From Escherichia phage fDHCT2, in the sequence record OR427838.1: DNA of 64,000 nt; one strand, written 5' to 3'. A model generated the notes under the pieces. It was not told the DNA's origin and did no database searches. It saw nothing but the letters and a program-made list of their open reading frames with translations. Shown in pieces: positions 3,742-38,751 of the stretch; the first letter of the stretch is position 1; each line of letters opens with the position of its first letter. Position numbers and translations under genes: made by a program.

Positions 3742-4246
3742 TCTTATCAGACCCTGGTGCTTTAGTTAAAGAGGTTTCATACTGTGTCATTTTATCGTAG
3801 ATATCTTGGATAAAGGTTTCATCTGCAATACCTACCATATCGTCATCATTACTGTCATAGACATTATGGACGAAGTAGCTGTATTTCTTTGCCATTTCTT
3901 TACGTTCTTTCTTGATACGCTGAACAAAGGCATTAAAACAAGCCATAGTGATATATGCATGTGGGTTGTCGTATTTTGTTTCGTCGAAGTTGTGAAGACC
4001 TTTAATAGAAGCTTCGATTCCATCAGCAATCATTTCTTGCTTCCAGGATTGGGTATACCCGGAGAAGTTGAAACGCTTAGAAAGGCCTTCAGCAATGAGC
4101 ATAATAGCCAAGCCGATAACATCGTTCTGACGAACTATTTTATTAGGATCGGTATTTTCTCGGAGCTCTGTTTTCCACTGGGTAATGGCTTTCAGAAGCT
4201 CCTTATTATTTACATAGTTATTTTTAGTCAGTTTAATTTCGGTCAT
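3689..4246 (-). CDS. 55: Late-transcription sigma factor gp55
   Basis: 185 aa; [63 protein letters not shown] match T4 gp55 from memory. Confidence 0.9.
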
Positions 4247-18098: not shown

Positions 18099-18482
18099 TT
18101 ATTCTAACGTTAACAAATATTTAGTCTGGTAAAAGACCCCAGTGATATCGTCCAAAGTCGACTGGATGGCCTTAGGAAGGGTAACATAGATTTTATCAGA
18201 TGCTTTAAGAAGCTCGTCAAGGAAATCTACAGGGTCCTTAGGCAAGTCTGAAGCAGACGGTAATGATGCTTTATATTCTTTGCCACTGAATCCAAGATAT
18301 TGCTCACTAAATTGGTCCAGCGGTCCTTGAACTTCTACATAATAGAAGTCATACGCTTTGTGTCTTGCATAGCTTTTGGTTTCTAAATGGGCTGACTTAA
18401 AATAGGCTAAAGAAACCAGTAGCCAACCAATATAAGAATCCACTTCAGACCCTCGACCGGGTACGAAATCATTGAACTTCAT
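18099..18482 (-). CDS. hypothetical protein
   Basis: 127-aa ORF. Confidence 0.5.
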   Translation of the reverse strand: MKFNDFVPGRGSEVDSYIGWLLVSLAYFKSAHLETKSYARHKAYDFYYVEVQGPLDQFSEQYLGFSGKEYKASLPSASDLPKDPVDFLDELLKASDKIYVTLPKAIQSTLDDITGVFYQTKYLLTLE

Positions 18483-18762
18483 CTTCCACCTTCATTAGTT
18501 TTGCATAACGCTCTCCGATGGCACGACCCTCAATTGAGCACGCTTCTATAGTCCGACAACTTGATATCTTCCAAGAAGCCGTAACATAGGCCCAATAGTC
18601 TTCGGAGGCCTTTATGCTAGGTCTACTCATTTGCGCATAAACAGGCATCGCACTACTAGCAAATGCATCCATCAATTTATCGTGAGTATTATTTGCTAGT
18701 GAAACTGTAGGGCTTAAACATCCTGCCATAAGGATACAAGCCGCTGTACGGAAAATATCCAT
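18469..18762 (-). CDS. rI: Lysis-inhibition regulator RI-like (antiholin) secreted protein
   Basis: 97 aa, N-terminal signal-like segment; C-terminal CRTIEACSIEGRAIGERYAKLM resembles T4 RI; upstream of tk as in T4. Confidence 0.6.
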   Translation of the reverse strand: MDIFRTAACILMAGCLSPTVSLANNTHDKLMDAFASSAMPVYAQMSRPSIKASEDYWAYVTASWKISSCRTIEACSIEGRAIGERYAKLMKVEDEVQ

Positions 18763-18854
18763 ACAAAAGTCCTTTGTTGTTTTATACTATTTGCCTTTCG
18801 GCCTTAACCGATAGCGATTACCAAAAGCTAAAGCTCTACGGTTAGTATTATTAT

Positions 18855-19133
18855 TTATAGCTTTTTAAGCTTACGACAATAAGAATAGAACACGTCGTTA
18901 AAATTATGCTCAACCCAATTCCTCTGTATAGGCGAGGTAATGGAAAGCATATAATGGGCTTTAATTAAATCCATCCCATTTTTATTAGGACATTCTTTAT
19001 TATTAGCATTATACGTCGCCGCTACAACCTCTATCTCTCTTTTGTAAGCCACATCATCCATGATAGGCGAAAGAACAATATAAGAAATAGCCACAGCGAA
19101 CGCTAGAATTAAAATCTTTGAATTTAGGTCCAT
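18855..19133 (-). CDS. hypothetical membrane-anchored protein
   Basis: 92 aa with N-terminal hydrophobic helix. Confidence 0.45.
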   Translation of the reverse strand: MDLNSKILILAFAVAISYIVLSPIMDDVAYKREIEVVAATYNANNKECPNKNGMDLIKAHYMLSITSPIQRNWVEHNFNDVFYSYCRKLKKL

Positions 19134-19140
19134 AGTACCC

Positions 19141-19713
19141 TCAACTCGTTATTTCTATCCAGTGCTTCCTGCACAATGACACGTAAGAATCGTTGCCACC
19201 TATAGAAACTTGGGCTCCGTCCTTAATTGCGACACCATCTTGGACCCTAGCAGTCATAGTAGCTTTACGGCCGCAATGGCACACACCTTTGTACTCAACG
19301 AGTTTATCTGCCGTAGCGAGTAATTCAGCAGAACCAGGAAACAGTTTACCCTGAAAATCAGTTCTTAGCCCATAGCACATAACTGGAACATTATAATTGT
19401 CTACTATCTTTGCCAGTTGTTTTATCTGTGCAGGTTCTAAGAACTGCGCTTCATCCACAAATACACAGTGGATATCTTTTTGAGATTCAGCCCAACGATA
19501 GAACTCGTATAGGTCCATATCCGGAGTCACTGCATTAGCCTCTTGACTAATCCCTATACGAGACGAAATGGTATGGCTTGATTCTCTATTGTCTATCGCA
19601 GGCTTTAAAAGGAGCACGCCCATACCACGTTCTTTGTAGTTATGAGCTGCCGTTAGCAATGAAGCGGTCTTACCTGAGTTCATTGCCGCATAGTGAAACA
19701 TCAAACTTGCCAT
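19141..19713 (-). CDS. tk: Thymidine kinase
   Basis: 190 aa; YAAMNSGKTASLL P-loop, VFVDEAQFL, CHCGRKA zinc motif; matches T4 Tk from memory. Confidence 0.9.
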   Translation of the reverse strand: MASLMFHYAAMNSGKTASLLTAAHNYKERGMGVLLLKPAIDNRESSHTISSRIGISQEANAVTPDMDLYEFYRWAESQKDIHCVFVDEAQFLEPAQIKQLAKIVDNYNVPVMCYGLRTDFQGKLFPGSAELLATADKLVEYKGVCHCGRKATMTARVQDGVAIKDGAQVSIGGNDSYVSLCRKHWIEITS

Positions 19714-19722
19714 ATCACCTTC

Positions 19723-19929
19723 TTAAAGCGTATTCACATAAGCAATTAATTCGTTTTCTTTCTCATCAAATCTATTAGCAAATTCTTCCAGATGTTCGGC
19801 ATCTATCGGGCCATATTCATCGTAAAAAGCGTTTGCTTCTGTATGCTCATCCAAAAGCTCATGGATAAGCTCAAACAATTTATCTTTCTGTTCTTTACTC
19901 AGACTCATAACCATTGCACCTTTAAGCAA
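19723..19929 (-). CDS. hypothetical protein
   Basis: 68-aa ORF. Confidence 0.45.
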   Translation of the reverse strand: MLKGAMVMSLSKEQKDKLFELIHELLDEHTEANAFYDEYGPIDAEHLEEFANRFDEKENELIAYVNTL

Positions 19930-20117
19930 TATTCTTCTACATGCTGTTTACGTTTATTTTTATCTATAAAAGTATATTCAACATATTCACCGATATACCA
20001 TTTATCAGTGTTGTGTTGACTTTTTATAGGGCATTTAGTTACTCGGGTTTCGGTCCAGCGCCGAATAATTTCAGCTTTATTTTTAGGGTCAAATGGATGC
20101 GGGTAATGTGCTTTCAT
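19905..20117 (-). CDS. hypothetical protein
   Basis: 70-aa ORF. Confidence 0.4.
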   Translation of the reverse strand: MKAHYPHPFDPKNKAEIIRRWTETRVTKCPIKSQHNTDKWYIGEYVEYTFIDKNKRKQHVEEYCLKVQWL

Positions 20118-20568
20118 AATCCACCACTATTAAATCAATATCAGGAGTAAACATGTCGATTAATTTAGAAACCTTGTCCCAATCGCCGCCAGCAATACCA
20201 CAACCTATGCGCGGAATATAAATTCTTGGTTTAAACAAAAGGGTTTCTGCTTGTAGATTTAATTCTATCATACAGTTTACTAAAGCACCGTAATCAAGAT
20301 TAGGGCCTGGTTCGTATTGTGTGTATAAATTATAGCACATTGCAAATCCATTAGGCTTATGTTTAAAAGCAATAGACATATCACCCAATTTATCTCGAGA
20401 GCCGTATTCGGTAGTAGTCTTATCAATTTCTAAAATTTTAGGATAAGCCTTAGCCAATTGTCCAGCTACACCTGAACCCATAGTGTGAAAACAATTACAC
20501 CCATGTGCAATAATATTACCTTGGAGAAACAGGGCGACGATATCGCCCTTAATATAATCAATAATCAT
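20089..20568 (-). CDS. Macro-domain (ADP-ribose-binding/hydrolase-like) protein
   Basis: 159 aa; N-terminal NIIAHGCNCFHTMGSGVAGQL and later GCGIAGG match macro-domain signature regions. Confidence 0.65.
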   Translation of the reverse strand: MIIDYIKGDIVALFLQGNIIAHGCNCFHTMGSGVAGQLAKAYPKILEIDKTTTEYGSRDKLGDMSIAFKHKPNGFAMCYNLYTQYEPGPNLDYGALVNCMIELNLQAETLLFKPRIYIPRIGCGIAGGDWDKVSKLIDMFTPDIDLIVVDYESTLPASI

Positions 20569-20921
20569 TTAGAGTTTAGCCCTCGATTGTAAGAGTCAAC
20601 GAGTCTGTCTACCATAGACGCGCACATTTCTTTGTACTTTTTATCAGACGGAACACATTCAGTAACGTTTAGACGTTGCTCGTATCTTTTAGAAAGAGTT
20701 TTCTCTTTCATTCGGCGATGCTCGACGTCGTTCTGTCCATCTTTAAAAGCAGCTGTTATTTTTGAACTGAATTCAATAATACATTCAGTATTACTAGGAT
20801 GACAATAATCTTTTGCTGTACGGGTAGCATACTCGACAATTGAATTATTGCTATCATCAACTTGTGACGCTAATACTCCCGGAGCGATCAACATAAGCGC
20901 TATAGTCATCTGTTTAATCAT
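20565..20921 (-). CDS. secreted/periplasmic hypothetical protein
   Basis: 118 aa with signal-peptide-like N-terminus MIKQMTIALMLIAPGVLAS. Confidence 0.5.
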   Translation of the reverse strand: MIKQMTIALMLIAPGVLASQVDDSNNSIVEYATRTAKDYCHPSNTECIIEFSSKITAAFKDGQNDVEHRRMKEKTLSKRYEQRLNVTECVPSDKKYKEMCASMVDRLVDSYNRGLNSK

Positions 20922-21461
20922 TTAATATACCGCCTCAAACATCTTTTTAGATTTTAGGTAATTGGCCTTTTCTAGAACTTCAGAAGCATATTTACTGCCT
21001 GCTTTGACGTCCCAGCCCGCATTATAAGAAGCAATCGCTTTTCTCAGGTCACCTTTGTGAACACCAATCCAATAAGACAGTTCAATGTAGGCCCAAGAGG
21101 CACTGTTCTGTCGTTTTTGGACCATACGGATTATTTCTTTATCAGACATCTTCCAACCTACCTGTTGAACACGACTTCTTAACGTAGGCAAGTAATTTTG
21201 GAACATGCCATAAGCATGGTGCTTATCTTTATTTAAACCCTGATTAATTCCGGCGGATGATTCCTGCCATAGTAATCCGGCCATGATATATCCTAATCCT
21301 TTTTGATTAGGGTTTTCTTTGAACTTTCCCGACTTTTGGTATTGTTCACCGAAAGCATACGCATAATGTAAATTATCGAGTTGTTCATTACTGAAAGTAG
21401 GCTCTACGCTATGGGCAGACATACTAACTGTCAATAGTAAAGTGGCTAATACTTTTTTCAT
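20922..21461 (-). CDS. secreted lytic-transglycosylase-like protein
   Basis: signal peptide MKKVLATLLLTVSMSAHS; QESS...GMFQ resembles SLT catalytic region. Confidence 0.5.
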   Translation of the reverse strand: MKKVLATLLLTVSMSAHSVEPTFSNEQLDNLHYAYAFGEQYQKSGKFKENPNQKGLGYIMAGLLWQESSAGINQGLNKDKHHAYGMFQNYLPTLRSRVQQVGWKMSDKEIIRMVQKRQNSASWAYIELSYWIGVHKGDLRKAIASYNAGWDVKAGSKYASEVLEKANYLKSKKMFEAVY

Positions 21462-21473
21462 GAGACCTCATTA

Positions 21474-21932
21474 TTAAAGATAGATTACTTTCGTGCTGGT
21501 TTTACCTTCTAAACGTTTAGAGTTAACAAATGCCATACGACATTTTAATGAATATCCTTTATCAGGATGTTTACGATCTACGGTCATACCTAGCCATAAG
21601 GTTTTATCGGTAATTTCGAGACGCAATGGACGATACACTTTACCAGGGACAATTTCGGATTCTACATCAGGCAGAGGTTCCTGGATTAAGAATTCATGGA
21701 TTTCTTTAACATGGTTATGGAGTTGCTTGAATAAAGCAAAAACGTATTTTTCGTCGATTTCACGTTGGATAGCACGGTCCAACAAGTGATTAGAGTACTT
21801 AATAAAGAAAGCTGGGACACCGCTCTTGATGGCGGCTTTTTTGATGGACGCGTTAAGTTCACGAAATTCGGTTTCGAACTGACGACGTAATTTGTTGCGG
21901 CGGATGAATACTTCTGAATTAATTTCTGACAT
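21474..21932 (-). CDS. regB: Endoribonuclease RegB
   Basis: EVFIRRNKLRRQFETEFRELN...HLLDRAIQREIDEKYVF...RLEITD matches T4 RegB from memory; start at MSEIN (track ORF begins 53 codons upstream). Confidence 0.85.
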   Translation of the reverse strand: MSEINSEVFIRRNKLRRQFETEFRELNASIKKAAIKSGVPAFFIKYSNHLLDRAIQREIDEKYVFALFKQLHNHVKEIHEFLIQEPLPDVESEIVPGKVYRPLRLEITDKTLWLGMTVDRKHPDKGYSLKCRMAFVNSKRLEGKTSTKVIYL

Positions 21933-21960
21933 TTTGTAATCTCCTGTAGTTGATAGGTTT

Positions 21961-21989
21961 ATAGTATCATGTCTACAGGAGATGTAAAC
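21961..21989 (-). promoter_or_regulatory. T4-type early sigma70 promoter
   Basis: GTTTAC-17nt-TACTAT with TGa; inverted repeat ctcctgtag/ctacaggag flanks -10 and includes the regB SD. Confidence 0.6.
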
Positions 21990-21993
21990 AGCT

Positions 21994-22272
21994 TTAGTAC
22001 TTTTCTTCCGGTTGGAACACGGAACGACAAGCCCACATACTAGCTTCTTTAAGACGGTCAATTGCATTACGAATCTGGGTAATGCGTTCATGAGCCTGGT
22101 CTAGTTCTTGTTCAGAAACCTCTTCGGTATCTAAGTTCATATAATAGGTAACATGTTCTTCTTCTAGAGCTTTAAACATCAGCCCTAACCGAACTTCAGC
22201 ATCTTTAATGGCATTCACTTTACCGATTTTATCGTCGGTATGTGGCTTGTAACCTTTGATATCTTCAATCAT
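21994..22272 (-). CDS. hypothetical protein
   Basis: 92-aa ORF. Confidence 0.45.
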   Translation of the reverse strand: MIEDIKGYKPHTDDKIGKVNAIKDAEVRLGLMFKALEEEHVTYYMNLDTEEVSEQELDQAHERITQIRNAIDRLKEASMWACRSVFQPEEKY

Positions 22273-22487
22273 TTCACTTCCTCATCAGATGCAATATCAT
22301 ATTCTACAAAACGAAGGCCATCGTATCCACCACTAACAGAGATATACGTAGTCGGGTAAACAATTTCTTTACCATTCCATTGGCCGCCGTCCCAACATTC
22401 CAAAAAGCCTTGTTCGCCTTGTTCGTGGAACCAATCAACAAACATCTTCAGAGCTTCATCAGAGCCTTCAATTGCCAATTTAGACAT
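22269..22487 (-). CDS. hypothetical protein
   Basis: 72-aa ORF. Confidence 0.45.
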   Translation of the reverse strand: MSKLAIEGSDEALKMFVDWFHEQGEQGFLECWDGGQWNGKEIVYPTTYISVSGGYDGLRFVEYDIASDEEVK

Positions 22488-22776
22488 ATTTCTTCCAGCC
22501 AGAAATCATATGAATCTCTTGGTCGTATGTCAAGAGACTACGAGTTATAATACCCTTACAAGGCCCTGAGATGAACTCGAGAGTGAAGTAAGGAACCTGT
22601 TTCATTAATCGGATACTAGGAGCATGACATCTAAAACGAGAGCCCTTAAAGGGCCCTGACATGAATACATATTCTAATGGATAGAAATAAGCATATTCGA
22701 AATTTGCAGTAAGGTCCTCTCTTCGAACCTTACGTGAGAAATAACAGAACTCAAAAAGTTCTTCATCAGTCATCAT
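22480..22776 (-). CDS. hypothetical protein
   Basis: 98-aa ORF. Confidence 0.45.
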   Translation of the reverse strand: MMTDEELFEFCYFSRKVRREDLTANFEYAYFYPLEYVFMSGPFKGSRFRCHAPSIRLMKQVPYFTLEFISGPCKGIITRSLLTYDQEIHMISGWKKYV

Positions 22777-23300
22777 TGCATTCCTATCACAAAGAACAGC
22801 GGCAGAGGTTTAGAACCCTGGCACATAAATTTGTTAATCATTACCTGGTAAGCTTCATAGAACTTATCCATCGATGGAAGGCGCATTGGCTCTTCGATAA
22901 TAATCAATAATCGAGTAACTGATAGACCACGATACTTATGGAAGTTATCTTCGTCTAAAAATGATCGCACGGTATCATATACAATAAACCCAGGACCTTC
23001 TACTTGAAGATGTGGATGAGCCTTAGAAACCCTTTTTATTACATTACAGATTTCGCGTGACCGGTGCGAAGAACTCGACATAACAATCACATCATTACCC
23101 TTGGAAACCCAATCAGCTGCGAACTGGGCAAGGGCACTTGTTTTACCTGTTTGGCGCCCGCCGTCAAGTCGAAGAGTACCAAACTCTTGCATTCTTGAAG
23201 TAGGTTCGTACCAGGTGTATTGGTTTGAGTCTAAACGTTCAATGGCGCGTTCAGCGAAGGCGTGCATTAAGGTTAGATAAATGGGAGTTAAAAATTTCAT
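22773..23300 (-). CDS. small P-loop NTPase
   Basis: Walker A GGRQTGKTS, Walker B LLIIIEEP. Confidence 0.55.
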   Translation of the reverse strand: MKFLTPIYLTLMHAFAERAIERLDSNQYTWYEPTSRMQEFGTLRLDGGRQTGKTSALAQFAADWVSKGNDVIVMSSSSHRSREICNVIKRVSKAHPHLQVEGPGFIVYDTVRSFLDEDNFHKYRGLSVTRLLIIIEEPMRLPSMDKFYEAYQVMINKFMCQGSKPLPLFFVIGMQ

Positions 23301-23460
23301 AGTGGTCTCTTAGTTGTGGGGCCATTCCTTGGCACATAATTCATCCATGTATCCGTATGTAAACCCTTTACCGCACTTGGGCTCGACCTTATTACAGGTA
23401 GGGAAAGGTCCATCACTCAGAGGACGCGACGTTCATGAGGAGAGGGCCGGCTTGCCTTTA

Positions 23461-23760
23461 TTAGAAAGAACCAGAACCTCTAATTGTGTTCTGGCGACCT
23501 TTATTTTCCAATTCGGAATGGTCGATTTCGTAGGCTTGTGCTACACCAAAAGCCTTTTTAACTTTAGCTAAAGAGCCTTTAGATGTAACAATATTAAAAG
23601 TATTACCTTTGGTAAAATCAACCAAATCCACTTGTACACCTTGTTTACCGAGGCTTGCTACAATAGCATCAACATATTCTTGGTCTAAGGTGCCTTGGAC
23701 GCCTATTTGGAATGCTTTAGGAGCTTTGGCTTCTGTAATAAATTCTTGATAAGTTTTCAT
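23461..23760 (-). CDS. internal-protein-like protein with capsid targeting sequence
   Basis: N-terminus [11 protein letters not shown] as in T4 IPI/IPII/IPIII; third CTS gene next to denV. Confidence 0.55.
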   Translation of the reverse strand: MKTYQEFITEAKAPKAFQIGVQGTLDQEYVDAIVASLGKQGVQVDLVDFTKGNTFNIVTSKGSLAKVKKAFGVAQAYEIDHSELENKGRQNTIRGSGSF

Positions 23761-34836: not shown

Positions 34837-34911
34837 TGGTATCCCGCCCTGGGATCGAACCAGGACCGCAAACTTAGAAGGATCGTATGCTATCCATTAC
34901 ACCAGCGGGAC
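34837..34911 (-). tRNA. tRNA-Arg (anticodon UCU)
   Basis: hand-folded cloverleaf: acceptor gtcccgc/gcgggat, anticodon loop cuUCUaa, T-arm cctgg-TTCGATC-ccagg, encoded CCA. Confidence 0.7.
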
Positions 34912-34916
34912 ATAGT

Positions 34917-34993
34917 TGGTGACCCGGACCAGATTTGAACTGGTAACCTTTCCCTTATGAGGGGACTGCTGCTAACCATTGAGCTACAGGGCC
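34917..34993 (-). tRNA. tRNA with CAU anticodon (Ile2-lysidine type or Met)
   Basis: resembles E. coli tRNA-Ile2: anticodon loop cuCAUaa, T-arm accag-TTCAAAT-ctggt, encoded CCA; acceptor stem has one mismatch. Confidence 0.6.
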
Positions 34994-37325: not shown

Positions 37326-38079
37326 TTTTATTTCCTAATAATTTATCAATAGTAGTGTATAGTTCAGAAAGAGTGCCGTTATTTTCAACAACAACGTCAC
37401 CAGGTAAAATTGGTAGACCCGCTTCAGTGATGTGCGAGTCTTGTACTTGACCGGTTTCAGCGCGAACTACATGAATAATCGTAGCACCCATCGCTCTGAG
37501 CGAATCAATTTCGTGTGTTTGACGAACATCAGGTACGACATAGTATTTCGCATCAGAGTATATTTTATCAAAATAGTCTAAAGCGAACAACTTAACCCAA
37601 TACATCTTATCAAATTGGTTAACAATAATATCAGTCCCAAGGGTCTGCATGAGACGACGTACTGACCAATTGTTATTTTTATTTATTACTTCAAACAGTT
37701 GGTCTTTTGTTTCTTCAGACAGATACTGGACCGGGGTAAGACCATAATGATATGCGGTACGAACATCCATTCCTGGAATAGGAAGGATATTATTCAGTTT
37801 GACAATAGCATTTTCAAAGATATCAATCACATCATATGGTTTTAAAGGAAGGATTTCTTCACGGTCGTAACCGATACCTTCAAAACAGTTAAAATCGAGT
37901 TTAGGCATATAACTACGGTCGAATACAGGGTCATCAGAGATGTATTCATAGGCTTCAGCCAGATACTTTTTAATAGGACCTGCTAGCTGAAATTTTACCG
38001 AATCCATATTTTCGATTACATAGTTAGCAACGGTATCCTTACCGCTACGTTTGATTCCTACAATTGATATTAGTTTCAT
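37318..38079 (-). CDS. 1: Deoxynucleoside monophosphate kinase (gene 1)
   Basis: GIKRSGKDT P-loop, SVRRLMQTLGTDIIVNQFDKMYWVKLFALDY matches T4 gp1. Confidence 0.9.
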
Positions 38080-38669
38080 TATTTTCTCATAGATGGATGC
38101 ATAGACATACGAGCCACACGTTGTTCGGCATACGAATCAATTTGTGGACGACCTGTAACTATTGTACCATCTATTTCTACAGCAAACGATTTGAAGTTGA
38201 ATGTTGCTGTAGCGATTATCGCAGGGTCAGAATCTTCTTTATACGAGTACTGGATTTCCGAGAGGTCAGAGGGCCAACCACCATAGTAATGAATGCTCAT
38301 TACGATTTTCTGTTTGTTGTTATCAAGGATGTGGAGCGTAATTGCTTCAGGTAAGCCTTTAGGATGCCAGGCTTCTGAATCATGGGTTACGTAGTTGTTT
38401 AATGATAACATCCACTTATAAACGTCAAGCCATGATTTCAATTCTTTGTCCACAAGAAAGTTCACGACCAATGGGTCGAATTCTACAGTAGAACCTGGCA
38501 GCTTAGCACGATGTATGCCCTGGGTCGATCCTGGGACGTCTGAGATCGGAATATGGATACCAGGTAGTGTTACATCTTGTACGTTCAATTTGAATGACTG
38601 TGTCATTCCTGAGTCACTAACCTCTAAGATAAAGTTAGTGGTGTTAGTTTGGTTAAATAAACCGTTCAT
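38079..38669 (-). CDS. 3: Tail completion/sheath stabiliser gp3 (start uncertain: 38669, 38606 or 38831)
   Basis: ORF between gene 1 and gene 2 as in T4; AGGA SD before Met at 38669; longest ORF would overlap gp2. Confidence 0.6.
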   Translation of the reverse strand: MNGLFNQTNTTNFILEVSDSGMTQSFKLNVQDVTLPGIHIPISDVPGSTQGIHRAKLPGSTVEFDPLVVNFLVDKELKSWLDVYKWMLSLNNYVTHDSEAWHPKGLPEAITLHILDNNKQKIVMSIHYYGGWPSDLSEIQYSYKEDSDPAIIATATFNFKSFAVEIDGTIVTGRPQIDSYAEQRVARMSMHPSMRK

Positions 38670-38751
38670 AAGGTTCCTATATTGCTTAAGTCCCGGACAG
38701 TGTATAATGGTCCTAGGTCTGTTCCATTCAATAACTGGCTGGGATAATAGA

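What the first reader, a model, noticed from the sequence alone, without database searches (positions are those of the whole stretch)
20089..20568. Macro-domain protein in the tk-regB early region
The 159-aa ORF has the macro-domain hallmarks (NIIAHGCNCFHTMGSGVAGQL near the N-terminus, a later GCGIAGG glycine-rich loop). Macro domains bind or hydrolyse ADP-ribose conjugates. In a phage this could reverse host ADP-ribosylation-based defence (DarT-type DNA ADP-ribosylation, ADP-ribose-derived signals) or modulate the phage's own ADP-ribosyltransferases.
Basis: partly seen in the sequence, partly recalled or inferred. Interest (0 to 1): 0.55.

Follow-up and report, generated by a model that had tools for sequence, protein, structure and literature searches.

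The report
Phage macrodomain that counters DarT (Tk.4/AdfM)
This is the T4-type phage gene tk.4, a small ADP-ribose-removing (macro-domain) enzyme that a 2025 preprint named AdfM because T4 needs it to grow on bacteria armed with the DNA-ADP-ribosylating DarTG2 defence. The gene is real and well understood, not new.

Summary

The window comes from a JS98-like T-even phage. The ORF is the syntenic ortholog of T4 tk.4 (57% identity, order tk..tk.3-tk.4-vs-vs.1-regB). A November 2025 preprint showed that deleting T4 tk.4 sensitises T4 to DarTG2 and renamed the gene adfM. Its other ideas (Thoeris signals, the phage's own ADP-ribosyltransferases) have no support.

My added point concerns the active site. 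The family does not have the DarG/TARG1 arrangement:
- The catalytic lysine is an invariant glutamine (Q84; 122/122 database homologs, 80/80 bacterial homologs).
- The TARG1 aspartate is an alanine.
- H22, N25, Q84 and G124 align one-to-one with His24, Asn27, Gln85 and Gly128 of Streptomyces SCO6735, a lysine-less hydrolase of thymidine-linked ADP-ribose on DNA.

The protein lacks the DarT-binding domain of DarG and has no DarT partner, so it is an orphan, antitoxin-like enzyme. Nobody has yet done biochemistry on this protein or on T4 Tk.4. Verdict: already known, low-to-moderate interest.

The parts
20089..20568 (-). tk.4 / adfM coding sequence: 159 aa, a standalone macro domain. Stop codon TGA at 20089-20091.
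20461..20505 (-). Codons for H22-G36 (HGCNCFHTMGSGVAG): the HxxN motif plus the first glycine-rich (phosphate-binding) loop. H22 and N25 correspond to SCO6735 His24 and Asn27, and N25 to PhiKZ AdfM N23.
   Evidence: Translation. Invariance of H22, G23, N25, C26, G33 and A35. Alignment to SCO6735 and to PhiKZ gp104. Mutational data in PMC9411070 and PMC13309987.
20317..20331 (-). Codons for N80-Q84 (NLYTQ), the family hallmark. Q84 occupies the position of the catalytic Lys of TARG1 (K84) and DarG (K80), and equals Gln85 of SCO6735.
   Evidence: Translation. N80, Y82 and Q84 are invariant in 122/122 sequences (the window ORF, T4 Tk.4 and 120 database homologs) and in all 80 bacterial homologs. 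High-posterior profile alignment to TARG1. Direct alignment to SCO6735. Q85A and Q85E are inactive in SCO6735.
20179..20214 (-). Codons for P119-W130 (PRIGCGIAGGDW): the second glycine-rich (diphosphate/distal-ribose) loop. G124 corresponds to SCO6735 Gly128. A126 sits where TARG1 has its catalytic Asp125.
   Evidence: Translation. Alignments. Conservation.
20542..20547 (-). Codons for G8-D9 (the KGD motif at the end of strand 1). This aligns to TARG1 G19-D20, the adenine-contacting Asp of macro domains. That role is stated from general knowledge of macro domains and was not tested here.
   Evidence: Alignment to TARG1, Poa1p, BT1257 and SCO6735. G8 is invariant.
20565..20568 (-). ATGA overlap: the tk.4 start codon ATG (20568-20566) overlaps the vs stop codon TGA (20567-20565). 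This arrangement is typical of translational coupling within one transcript.
   Evidence: Sequence and ORF coordinates.
20565..20921 (-). Upstream neighbour vs (valyl-tRNA synthetase modifier), co-oriented. It is context only and not part of the function.
   Evidence: ORF list. JS98 and T4 annotation. 46% aa identity to T4 Vs.
19905..20117 (-). Downstream neighbour tk.3 (70 aa). Its start overlaps the 3' end of tk.4 by 29 nt. Context only.
   Evidence: ORF list. JS98 annotation shows the same 29-nt overlap. 71% identity to T4 Tk.3.

Best explanation
The ORF is the JS98-type allele of the T-even phage gene tk.4, now called adfM (anti-DarT factor, macrodomain).

Proposed mechanism:
- It is expressed from the prereplicative tk-regB gene block as a free 159-aa macro domain.
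- It binds ADP-ribose attached by the host toxin DarT2 to thymidine in single-stranded phage DNA and hydrolyses the base-ribose bond.
- Replication can then proceed in DarTG2-carrying hosts.
- It acts as an orphan, antitoxin-like enzyme. It has no DarT partner and lacks the DarT-binding C-terminal domain of DarG.
- Chemically it belongs to the lysine-less SCO6735/BT1257 branch of the TARG1/ALC1-like macrodomains. An invariant Gln84, held by Asn25 and with His22 nearby, positions the substrate and a water molecule. This replaces the Lys nucleophile used by DarG and TARG1.

What is shown here: the ORF, the fold, orthology, residue equivalences, and the absence of a DarT partner or a DarG C-terminal domain.

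What is shown in the literature for relatives: the DarTG2 phenotype of T4 lacking tk.4; hydrolysis of thymidine-linked ADP-ribose (dT-ADPr) and the essential Gln85 in SCO6735; removal of DarT2-added ADP-ribose by PhiKZ AdfM.

What is inferred: that this allele has the same activity, that it works enzymatically, and that it is expressed early.

For: 2. Orthology with T4 Tk.4. 57% identity over 155 aa with no gaps, E 2e-69. The gene order tk..tk.3-tk.4-vs-vs.1-regB is identical.

3. Function of the ortholog. T4 tk.4 was the only significant hit on a DarTG2 host, and its deletion sensitises T4 to DarTG2 (preprint 10.1101/2025.11.20.689424).

4. Defence libraries. The best model in both PADLOC and NCBIfam is DarG, matched over its macrodomain only.

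5. Active site. H22, N25, Q84 and G124 align with SCO6735 His24, Asn27, Gln85 and Gly128. Q84 aligns with TARG1 K84, and A126 with TARG1 D125. SCO6735 hydrolyses dT-ADPr on DNA and protects against DarT. Its Q85A/E mutants lose all activity, and its G128E mutant loses a substantial part of it (PMC9411070). Q84, N80, Y82, H22 and N25 are invariant in 122/122 and 80/80 homologs.

6. Independent phage precedent. PhiKZ gp104 ('AdfM') removes DarT2-added ADP-ribose in vitro, and its N23A mutant is impaired (PMC13309987). N23 aligns with N25 here.

7. Distribution. The gene occurs in 2768 phage records, mostly large virulent phages. This fits a counter-defence gene.
Against: - No experiment exists on this allele, and there is no biochemistry even for T4 Tk.4. 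The preprint infers enzymatic removal only by analogy.
- The window protein is only 57% identical to T4 Tk.4, so the specificity for particular DarT2 variants could differ.
- The catalytic Lys of DarG is absent, so the mechanism rests on one studied analogue, SCO6735. That enzyme also inhibits DarT by direct binding even when catalytically dead.
- Sequence similarity to Poa1p (an ADP-ribose-1''-phosphate phosphatase) is as strong as to DarG.
- Early expression is assumed from T4 knowledge. The promoter scan gave nothing above chance.
Confidence: 0.7

Rival explanations
1. The protein neutralises DarT2 mainly by binding and blocking the toxin stoichiometrically, as an antitoxin mimic, rather than by repairing DNA.
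For: Catalytically dead SCO6735 Q85A inhibits DarT efficiently, more strongly than DarG K80A or TARG1 K84A (PMC9411070). The ICP1 phage factor AdfB counters DarT by direct interaction (PMC11481870).
Against: The residues that are invariant across phage and distant bacterial homologs are exactly the catalytic and ADP-ribose-binding ones: H22, N25, Q84 and the Gly loops. This indicates selection for enzyme activity. Bacterial homologs are orphans with no DarT next to them. The protein lacks the DarT-binding C-terminal domain of DarG.
Confidence: 0.1
2. It is a housekeeping ADP-ribose-metabolite enzyme (an ADP-ribose-1''-phosphate phosphatase like yeast Poa1p, or an O-acetyl-ADP-ribose deacetylase), as the database label 'phosphatase' implies. 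On this reading the DarTG2 phenotype is secondary.
Against: The label is an old generic transfer from the A1pp domain name. No source of ADP-ribose-1''-phosphate is known in T4 biology: from established knowledge, T4 tRNA repair by Pnkp/Rnl1 leaves no 2'-phosphate. The only phenotype found for the T4 gene is specific to DarTG2. The N-x-x-x-Q motif is shared with SCO6735 and BT1257.
Confidence: 0.07
3. It removes ADP-ribose from proteins or RNA. The targets could be modifications made by host defence ADP-ribosyltransferases, or modifications made by the phage's own Alt, ModA and ModB enzymes that need trimming.
For: It belongs to the TARG1-like class, and TARG1 cleaves Glu/Asp-linked protein ADP-ribose. 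SCO6735 removes glutamate-linked ADP-ribose in vitro (PMC8120803). T-even phages encode three ADP-ribosyltransferases.
Against: Both residues of the TARG1 dyad (K84/D125) are replaced, by Q84 and A126. Alt, ModA and ModB modify arginine, a linkage macrodomains are not known to cleave (general knowledge). SCO6735 is inactive on 2'-OH RNA ADP-ribose, and the same paper's results section also reports it inactive on phosphate-end ADP-ribose (PMC11833690). The mRNA ADP-ribosyltransferase system CmdTAC still defends strongly against wild-type T4, which carries tk.4 (PMC11618068).
Confidence: 0.08
4. It binds or degrades ADP-ribose-derived immune signals such as Thoeris gcADPR or His-ADPR.
Against: That match lies in the low tier, well below the TARG1/DarG tier. 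No genetic or literature support turned up in the searches. The invariant residues match a DNA-ADPr hydrolase.
Confidence: 0.03

Closest known systems
T4 Tk.4 = AdfM (anti-DarT factor macrodomain; bioRxiv 10.1101/2025.11.20.689424)
   Same: Syntenic ortholog: the same position between tk.3 and vs, 57% identity over the full length, and all family-invariant residues shared, including H22, N25 and the NLYTQ motif.
   Different: 43% of residues differ. The second Gly loop reads GCGIAGG here and GAGIGKG in T4. The DarTG2 phenotype is shown only for the T4 allele. This JS98-type allele also occurs as a swapped cassette in some Tequatroviruses.
Streptomyces coelicolor SCO6735 (PDB 5E3B), a lysine-less hydrolase of thymidine-linked ADP-ribose on DNA
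   Same: A standalone, orphan macrodomain of the TARG1/ALC1-like class. His24, Asn27, Gln85 and Gly128 align with H22, N25, Q84 and G124, and the GCG-x-AGG-x-W loop is shared. It hydrolyses the DarT product and protects from DarT.
   Different: It is a cellular, DNA-damage-inducible gene, not a phage gene. Similarity is low outside the motifs (E 1.2e-7). The motif is NMIGQH there and NLYTQY here.
DarG antitoxin macrodomain (DarTG2; PDB 5M3I, 5M31, 7OMU)
   Different: No C-terminal DarT-binding domain: the match covers profile positions 1-145 of 329/338. The score of 27 bits is far below the 250-bit equivalog cutoff. There is no adjacent darT. The catalytic Lys80 is replaced by Gln.
PhiKZ gp104 'AdfM' (chimallivirus DarG2-like macrodomain; Cell Rep 2026, PMC13309987)
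   Same: A phage-encoded standalone macrodomain that counters DarTG2. Its conserved Asn (N23) aligns with N25. hhalign probability is 96%.
   Different: A separate, distant lineage (24% identity). It carries a PTKD motif resembling the TK motif of DarG/TARG1 rather than TQ; the alignment at that spot is ambiguous. It is imported into the phage nucleus. It has in vitro biochemistry, which the T-even family lacks.
Bacteroides thetaiotaomicron BT1257 (PDB 2AFC/2FG1), a structural-genomics protein of unknown function
   Different: No known function, so it adds no mechanistic information.
Human TARG1/OARD1 (PDB 4J5R/4J5S)
   Same: The same macrodomain class (Foldseek top hit, E 2.8e-9; profile E 1.9e-16). 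The KGD, GxG and PRIGCG motifs are shared.
   Different: The TARG1 catalytic dyad Lys84/Asp125 is replaced by Gln84/Ala126.
Yeast Poa1p (PDB 6LFQ-6LFU), an ADP-ribose-1''-phosphate phosphatase
   Different: The middle region, including the NLYTQ motif, is not aligned by sequence. It is a metabolite phosphatase, and no such substrate is known in phage infection.

Membership tests
Macro domain (Pfam PF01661) | Profile score above Pfam's gathering cutoff | tested here: met
   32.1 bits against a cutoff of 22, E 1.3e-7, covering profile positions 2-117 of 118.
Macro domain (Pfam PF01661) | Three-layer alpha/beta/alpha macro fold | tested here: met
Macro domain (Pfam PF01661) | ADP-ribose-binding elements: adenine-contacting Asp after strand 1 and two glycine-rich loops | tested here: met
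   G8-D9, GSGVAG (31-36) and GCGIAGG (122-128) align to the corresponding TARG1, Poa1p and SCO6735 segments and are conserved. Actual binding could not be tested.
TARG1/ALC1-like macrodomain class | Nearest structural and sequence neighbours are TARG1, DarG, Poa1p and SCO6735 rather than MacroD, PARG or viral macro domains | tested here: met
TARG1-type glycohydrolase | Catalytic dyad Lys84/Asp125 | tested here: not met
   Q84 aligns with K84 and A126 with D125, both at high posterior probability. Q84 is invariant in the family.
DarG antitoxin (DarTG2) | Score above the NCBIfam equivalog cutoff for antitoxin_DarG | tested here: not met
   27.3 bits against a cutoff of 250.
DarG antitoxin (DarTG2) | C-terminal DarT-binding domain | tested here: not met
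   The protein is 159 aa. Matches cover only positions 1-145 of the 329/338-position DarG profiles.
DarG antitoxin (DarTG2) | Encoded next to a darT toxin gene | tested here: not met
   The neighbours are vs and tk.3. DarT/DUF4433 is absent from the 25 most frequent families reported for 106 ORFs flanking bacterial homologs; families hit by a single member below that list were not displayed.
DarG antitoxin (DarTG2) | Catalytic lysine (K80 in T. aquaticus DarG; 'TK-G-G' motif) | tested here: not met
   The motif here is TQ. The equivalence runs via TARG1 K84 and the published K80 = K84 = Q85 correspondence.
SCO6735-type lysine-less dT-ADPr DNA hydrolase | The His24, Asn27, Gln85, Gly128 constellation | tested here: met
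   Direct phmmer alignment: H22, N25, Q84 and G124. All four are invariant.
SCO6735-type lysine-less dT-ADPr DNA hydrolase | Hydrolysis of thymidine-linked ADP-ribose on ssDNA | not testable with these tools
   This needs an in vitro assay with a DarT2-modified oligonucleotide.
AdfM (T-even Tk.4) counter-defence factor | Orthology to T4 tk.4 (sequence plus synteny) | tested here: met
   57% identity, E 2e-69, full length. The gene order is the same.
AdfM (T-even Tk.4) counter-defence factor | Required for phage growth on DarTG2-expressing hosts | not testable with these tools
   Shown only for T4 in the preprint.
Poa1p-type ADP-ribose-1''-phosphate phosphatase | Poa1p residues that the depositors mutated (H23, S30, F152 in PDB entries 6LFS, 6LFT, 6LFU) | tested here: inconclusive
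   H23 aligns with H22 and S30 with T29, which varies within the family. The C-terminal region aligns only weakly and the equivalent of F152 was not resolved.

The most novel reading that the evidence does not exclude
The T-even AdfM clade may not be a captured DarG. It may instead be a phage branch of a widespread, orphan, lysine-less (Gln-type, SCO6735/BT1257-like) lineage of hydrolases that repair DNA-thymidine ADP-ribosylation.

Two observations fit this reading:
- In some bacteria this lineage is operonic with a NADAR guanine-ADPr hydrolase. That forms a generic two-enzyme 'DNA de-ADP-ribosylation repair' module, which T-even phages mirror with AdfM plus AdfN.
- tk.4 alleles are exchanged as single-gene cassettes between T-even genera, possibly tracking DarT2 diversity.
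Probability: 0.35. Interest if true: 0.45.

Novelty: already known. Interest (0 to 1): 0.25.

Why it matters
The finding adds one more well-supported copy of a phage counter-defence gene against the DarTG2 toxin-antitoxin system. It shows that a gene labelled 'phosphatase' in thousands of phage records should be read as adfM.

The only point beyond the literature available to me is mechanistic. The T-even AdfM family lacks the DarG/TARG1 catalytic lysine and carries the SCO6735-type glutamine constellation. Biochemical work on AdfM should therefore target Q84, N25 and G124 rather than a lysine.

The family also offers a second, very abundant system for studying lysine-independent cleavage of thymidine-linked ADP-ribose. 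For phage therapy and host-range prediction, the presence and integrity of this gene may predict resistance to DarTG2.

Tried and rejected
1. PDB search with only the C-terminal 98 residues, meant to expose the DarG, TARG1 and SCO6735 alignments. It gave only short local alignments around the PRIGCG loop, so the catalytic-Lys position stayed unresolved. The family profile and a chimeric query solved this.

2. hhalign of the family against PhiKZ gp104. Homology is clear (96%), but around the TK/TQ position the alignment has low confidence and is shifted by two residues. I therefore do not claim a residue-level equivalence there.

3. Sigma-70 promoter and terminator scan of 18400-23500. Counts equal the shuffled expectation (15 against 14.0 promoter-like sites; 4 against 3.5 terminator-like sites). 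No promoter assignment was made.

4. Search for a DarT partner next to cellular homologs. None was found. The neighbourhoods are lineage-specific, and the largest neighbour family covers 7 of 154 ORFs.

5. ICP1 AdfB as a possible macrodomain precedent. It acts by binding DarT, and the paper does not describe it as a macrodomain, so it is not a relative.

7. CmdTAC and RNA-ADPr reversal as an alternative target: rejected as the primary role.

8. Literature searches for biochemical work on T4 Tk.4. Nothing turned up beyond the HIDEN-SEQ genetics.

Full report
**Observation**

Both quoted motifs are present: NIIAHGCNCFHTMGSGVAGQL at residues 18-38 and GCGIAGG at residues 122-128. The start codon overlaps the stop codon of the upstream gene in an ATGA arrangement (20565-20568). 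The 3' end overlaps the start of the next gene by 29 nt. The gene is therefore embedded in a tightly packed, co-oriented block.

**Is it a macro domain?**

Yes.
- Pfam Macro (PF01661) matches nearly end to end at 32.1 bits against a cutoff of 22.
- A single-sequence search of PDB sequences finds BT1257 (6e-11), yeast Poa1p (8e-10), SCO6735 (1e-7), the M. tuberculosis DarG macrodomain 5M3I (1e-4) and human TARG1 (4e-3).
- A profile built from 62 family members raises these to 1.7e-19 (BT1257), 1.9e-16 (TARG1), 2.2e-16 (SCO6735), 4e-14 (Poa1p), 8e-12 (Mtb DarG) and 3e-10 (T. aquaticus DarG). MacroD and viral macro domains stay at 5e-3 or weaker.
- An AlphaFold2 model built on that alignment is confident (pLDDT 94.2, pTM 0.89).
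- Foldseek ranks TARG1, BT1257, Poa1p and DarG first.

The protein is therefore a standalone member of the TARG1/ALC1-like macrodomain class.

**Which gene is it?**

The window is 94-96% identical over 19000-22000 to JS98-like T-even phages (dhaeg, JS98, MN04, JS10; genus Dhakavirus). In those records the ORF is annotated tk.4, 'phosphatase; contains A1pp phosphatase motif'. T4 has the same gene order, tk - tk.1/2/3 - tk.4 - vs - vs.1 - regB. T4 Tk.4 (155 aa) is 57% identical over the full length without gaps (E 2e-69). That divergence falls within the range of the neighbouring proteins (Vs 46%, RegB 58%, Vs.1 67%, Tk 71%). It is ordinary genus-level orthology.

Homologs occur in 2768 of 50,697 phage records, mostly T4-like, V5-like, FelixO1-like and other large virulent phages. 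PHROG 335 matches at 2.6e-71.

**What is known about it?**

A November 2025 preprint (HIDEN-SEQ, bioRxiv 10.1101/2025.11.20.689424) screened a T4 transposon library on E. coli expressing DarTG2.
- tk.4 was the single significant hit.
- A clean knockout sensitised T4 to DarTG2.
- The authors noted structural similarity to the Mtb DarG macrodomain and renamed the gene adfM (anti-DarT factor macrodomain).
- They proposed enzymatic removal of ADP-ribose from DNA by analogy, without biochemistry.

Independently, a Cell Reports 2026 paper gave the same name to PhiKZ gp104, a nucleus-imported macrodomain. That protein removes DarT2-added ADP-ribose from a TNTC oligonucleotide in vitro, rescues DarT2 toxicity, and is impaired by N23A (PMC13309987). 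The complementary guanine-specific system is also known: DarTG1 is countered by the T4 NADAR protein AdfN, the product of gene 30.3 (PMC11825919).

I found no further work on Tk.4 in the library.

**Mechanism: what the sequence adds**

The family-invariant residues are G8, H22, G23, N25, C26, G33, A35, D49, L61, N80, Y82, Q84, P119, G122, G124 and W130. The key ones are invariant in 122/122 sequences (the window ORF, T4 Tk.4 and 120 database homologs) and in 80/80 bacterial homologs.

In the high-posterior profile alignment to TARG1, Q84 falls on the catalytic Lys84 and A126 on Asp125. I checked the numbering through both residues of the dyad. The SCO6735 paper (PMC9411070) states the following:
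- DarG keeps only the lysine (K80).
- SCO6735 has neither residue of the dyad.
- Gln85 of SCO6735 occupies the lysine position, and Q85A and Q85E are dead.
- Asn27 locks Gln85 in place.
- His24 lies nearby, and H24Y is inactive but misfolded.
- G128E loses a substantial part of its activity.
- SCO6735 hydrolyses thymidine-linked ADP-ribose on DNA and protects against DarT, probably through an activated water.

To see the direct alignment I lifted 5E3B to the top of the hit list with a chimeric query: window residues 1-112 plus SCO6735's own C-terminal 30 residues. The N-terminal and middle alignment, which depends only on window residues, pairs H22/N25/Q84 with chain positions 44/47/105. These are His24/Asn27/Gln85 after the 20-residue tag offset. 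The C-terminal pairing of G124 with Gly128 comes from the native query. BT1257 also has the N-x-x-x-Q motif.

The T-even AdfM family is therefore SCO6735-like in its chemistry and not DarG-like. This is my inference from the alignments plus published mutagenesis of the analogue, and it has not been tested on this protein. PhiKZ AdfM shares the Asn (N23 aligned to N25). It carries a PTKD motif like the TK motif of DarG/TARG1, but the alignment at that spot is ambiguous. The two proteins called 'AdfM' are distant branches of the class.

**Membership in DarG**

PADLOC and NCBIfam both return DarG as the best model. The match covers only the macrodomain part (positions 1-145 of 329/338), at 27 bits against a 250-bit equivalog cutoff. 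The protein has no C-terminal DarT-binding domain, no adjacent darT, and no catalytic lysine. It works like a DarG macrodomain but is not a DarG. 'Orphan antitoxin-like enzyme' describes it best.

**Cellular relatives**

A scan of species-representative genomes found at least 502 bacterial genomes with relatives at 34-45% identity. They include Rhodobacteraceae, Desulfobacterota, Verrucomicrobiota and Planctomycetota, among others.
- All 80 retained copies are standalone ORFs of about 150 aa.
- All 80 keep the same invariant residues.
- Their neighbourhoods are lineage-specific. DarT/DUF4433 is absent from the 25 most frequent families among 106 flanking ORFs.
- In three genomes (a Victivallales MAG and two Ruegeria species) a NADAR gene lies immediately upstream on the same strand, with gaps of 12, -10 and 8 nt. 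This is a bacterial macro+NADAR pair that mirrors T4's AdfM+AdfN.

One chromosomal example, in Pelagimonas, sits among housekeeping genes. One phage-like metagenomic contig carries the macro gene about 4 kb from an Acb5 anti-CBASS gene.

**Rival explanations**

1. Stoichiometric inhibition of DarT. This is plausible because dead SCO6735 inhibits DarT. However, the conservation pattern points to catalysis.
2. A Poa1p-like metabolite phosphatase or deacetylase. This is the basis of the 'phosphatase' label, but no substrate source is known in T4 biology, and the only phenotype is specific to DarTG2.
3. De-ADP-ribosylation of protein or RNA. The TARG1 dyad is absent. Alt, ModA and ModB make Arg-linked ADP-ribose. 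SCO6735 is inactive on 2'-OH RNA ADP-ribose, and the same paper's results section also reports it inactive on phosphate-end ADP-ribose. CmdTAC still defends strongly against wild-type T4.
4. Thoeris-signal binding. There is no support for this.

**Verdict**

The feature is already known: it has been annotated as an A1pp/macro protein since the JS98 and T4 genome annotations, and it was functionally named adfM in 2025. Residual interest lies in three points: no biochemistry exists for the T-even family, the predicted active site is Gln-type, and there are side observations on cassette exchange and bacterial NADAR+macro pairs. Interest 0.25.

Noticed in passing
L014:3549-4465; L026:3472-4438; L036:3463-4450: In three bacterial genomes (a Victivallales MAG and two Ruegeria species), a NADAR gene (PF08719, E about 1e-37, with a weak Phage_30_3/AdfN hit) lies immediately upstream of the Tk.4-like macro gene on the same strand, with gaps of 12, -10 and 8 nt. 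This is a possible two-enzyme DNA de-ADP-ribosylation module that mirrors T4 AdfN plus AdfM.
   Followed up: partly
L004:2501-2980 (T4_ev240) vs window 20089-20568: Single-gene cassette swap. The Tequatrovirus T4_ev240 carries the JS98-type tk.4 allele (93.7% aa identity to the window). Its flanking genes are as diverged from the window as T4's are (Vs 46%, Vs.1 67%, Tk 71%). About 300 phage records hold this allele at 90-95% identity.
   Followed up: partly
L002:2531-2906 (T4 clone T4_7t1): In this laboratory T4 mutant record, tk.4 is split into two short 'macro domain-containing protein' ORFs, so the gene is apparently disrupted. Naturally shortened copies also occur: P0003 at 130 aa (SHFML phages), P0058 at 127 aa (CkP1) and P0083 at 120 aa (Klebsiella phage).
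   Followed up: no
window 19904-19908 (junction between tk.2 and tk.3): Relative to JS98, the window lacks the roughly 200-bp gene orf102 that JS98 has between tk.2 and tk.3. The blastn segments join window 19908/19904 to JS98 locus positions 3909/4108.
   Followed up: no
window 34837-34993: ARAGORN finds only two tRNA genes (Arg-tct, Met-cat). The JS98 record annotates three at the corresponding place (Arg, Asn, Met).
   Followed up: no
window 18469-18762 (-): The 97-aa ORF at the rI position (annotated 'lysis inhibition' in JS98) gives no BLASTP hit at all to T4 rI, although it has the same length and position. It is either a positional analogue or a very divergent ortholog.
   Followed up: no
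L007:541-888 and L007:5001-5447: On a 110-kb phage-like metagenomic contig, a Tk.4-family macro gene lies about 4 kb from an Acb5 (anti-CBASS, PF26761) gene, among nucleotide-metabolism genes. This suggests clustering of counter-defence genes.
   Followed up: no
window ~38000-38700 (by correspondence to JS98 57B): By collinearity with JS98, the window should also contain gene 57B, which in T4 is the anti-CBASS nuclease Acb1. The JS98 record labels it 'RNA ligase'. I did not check this in the window itself.
   Followed up: no
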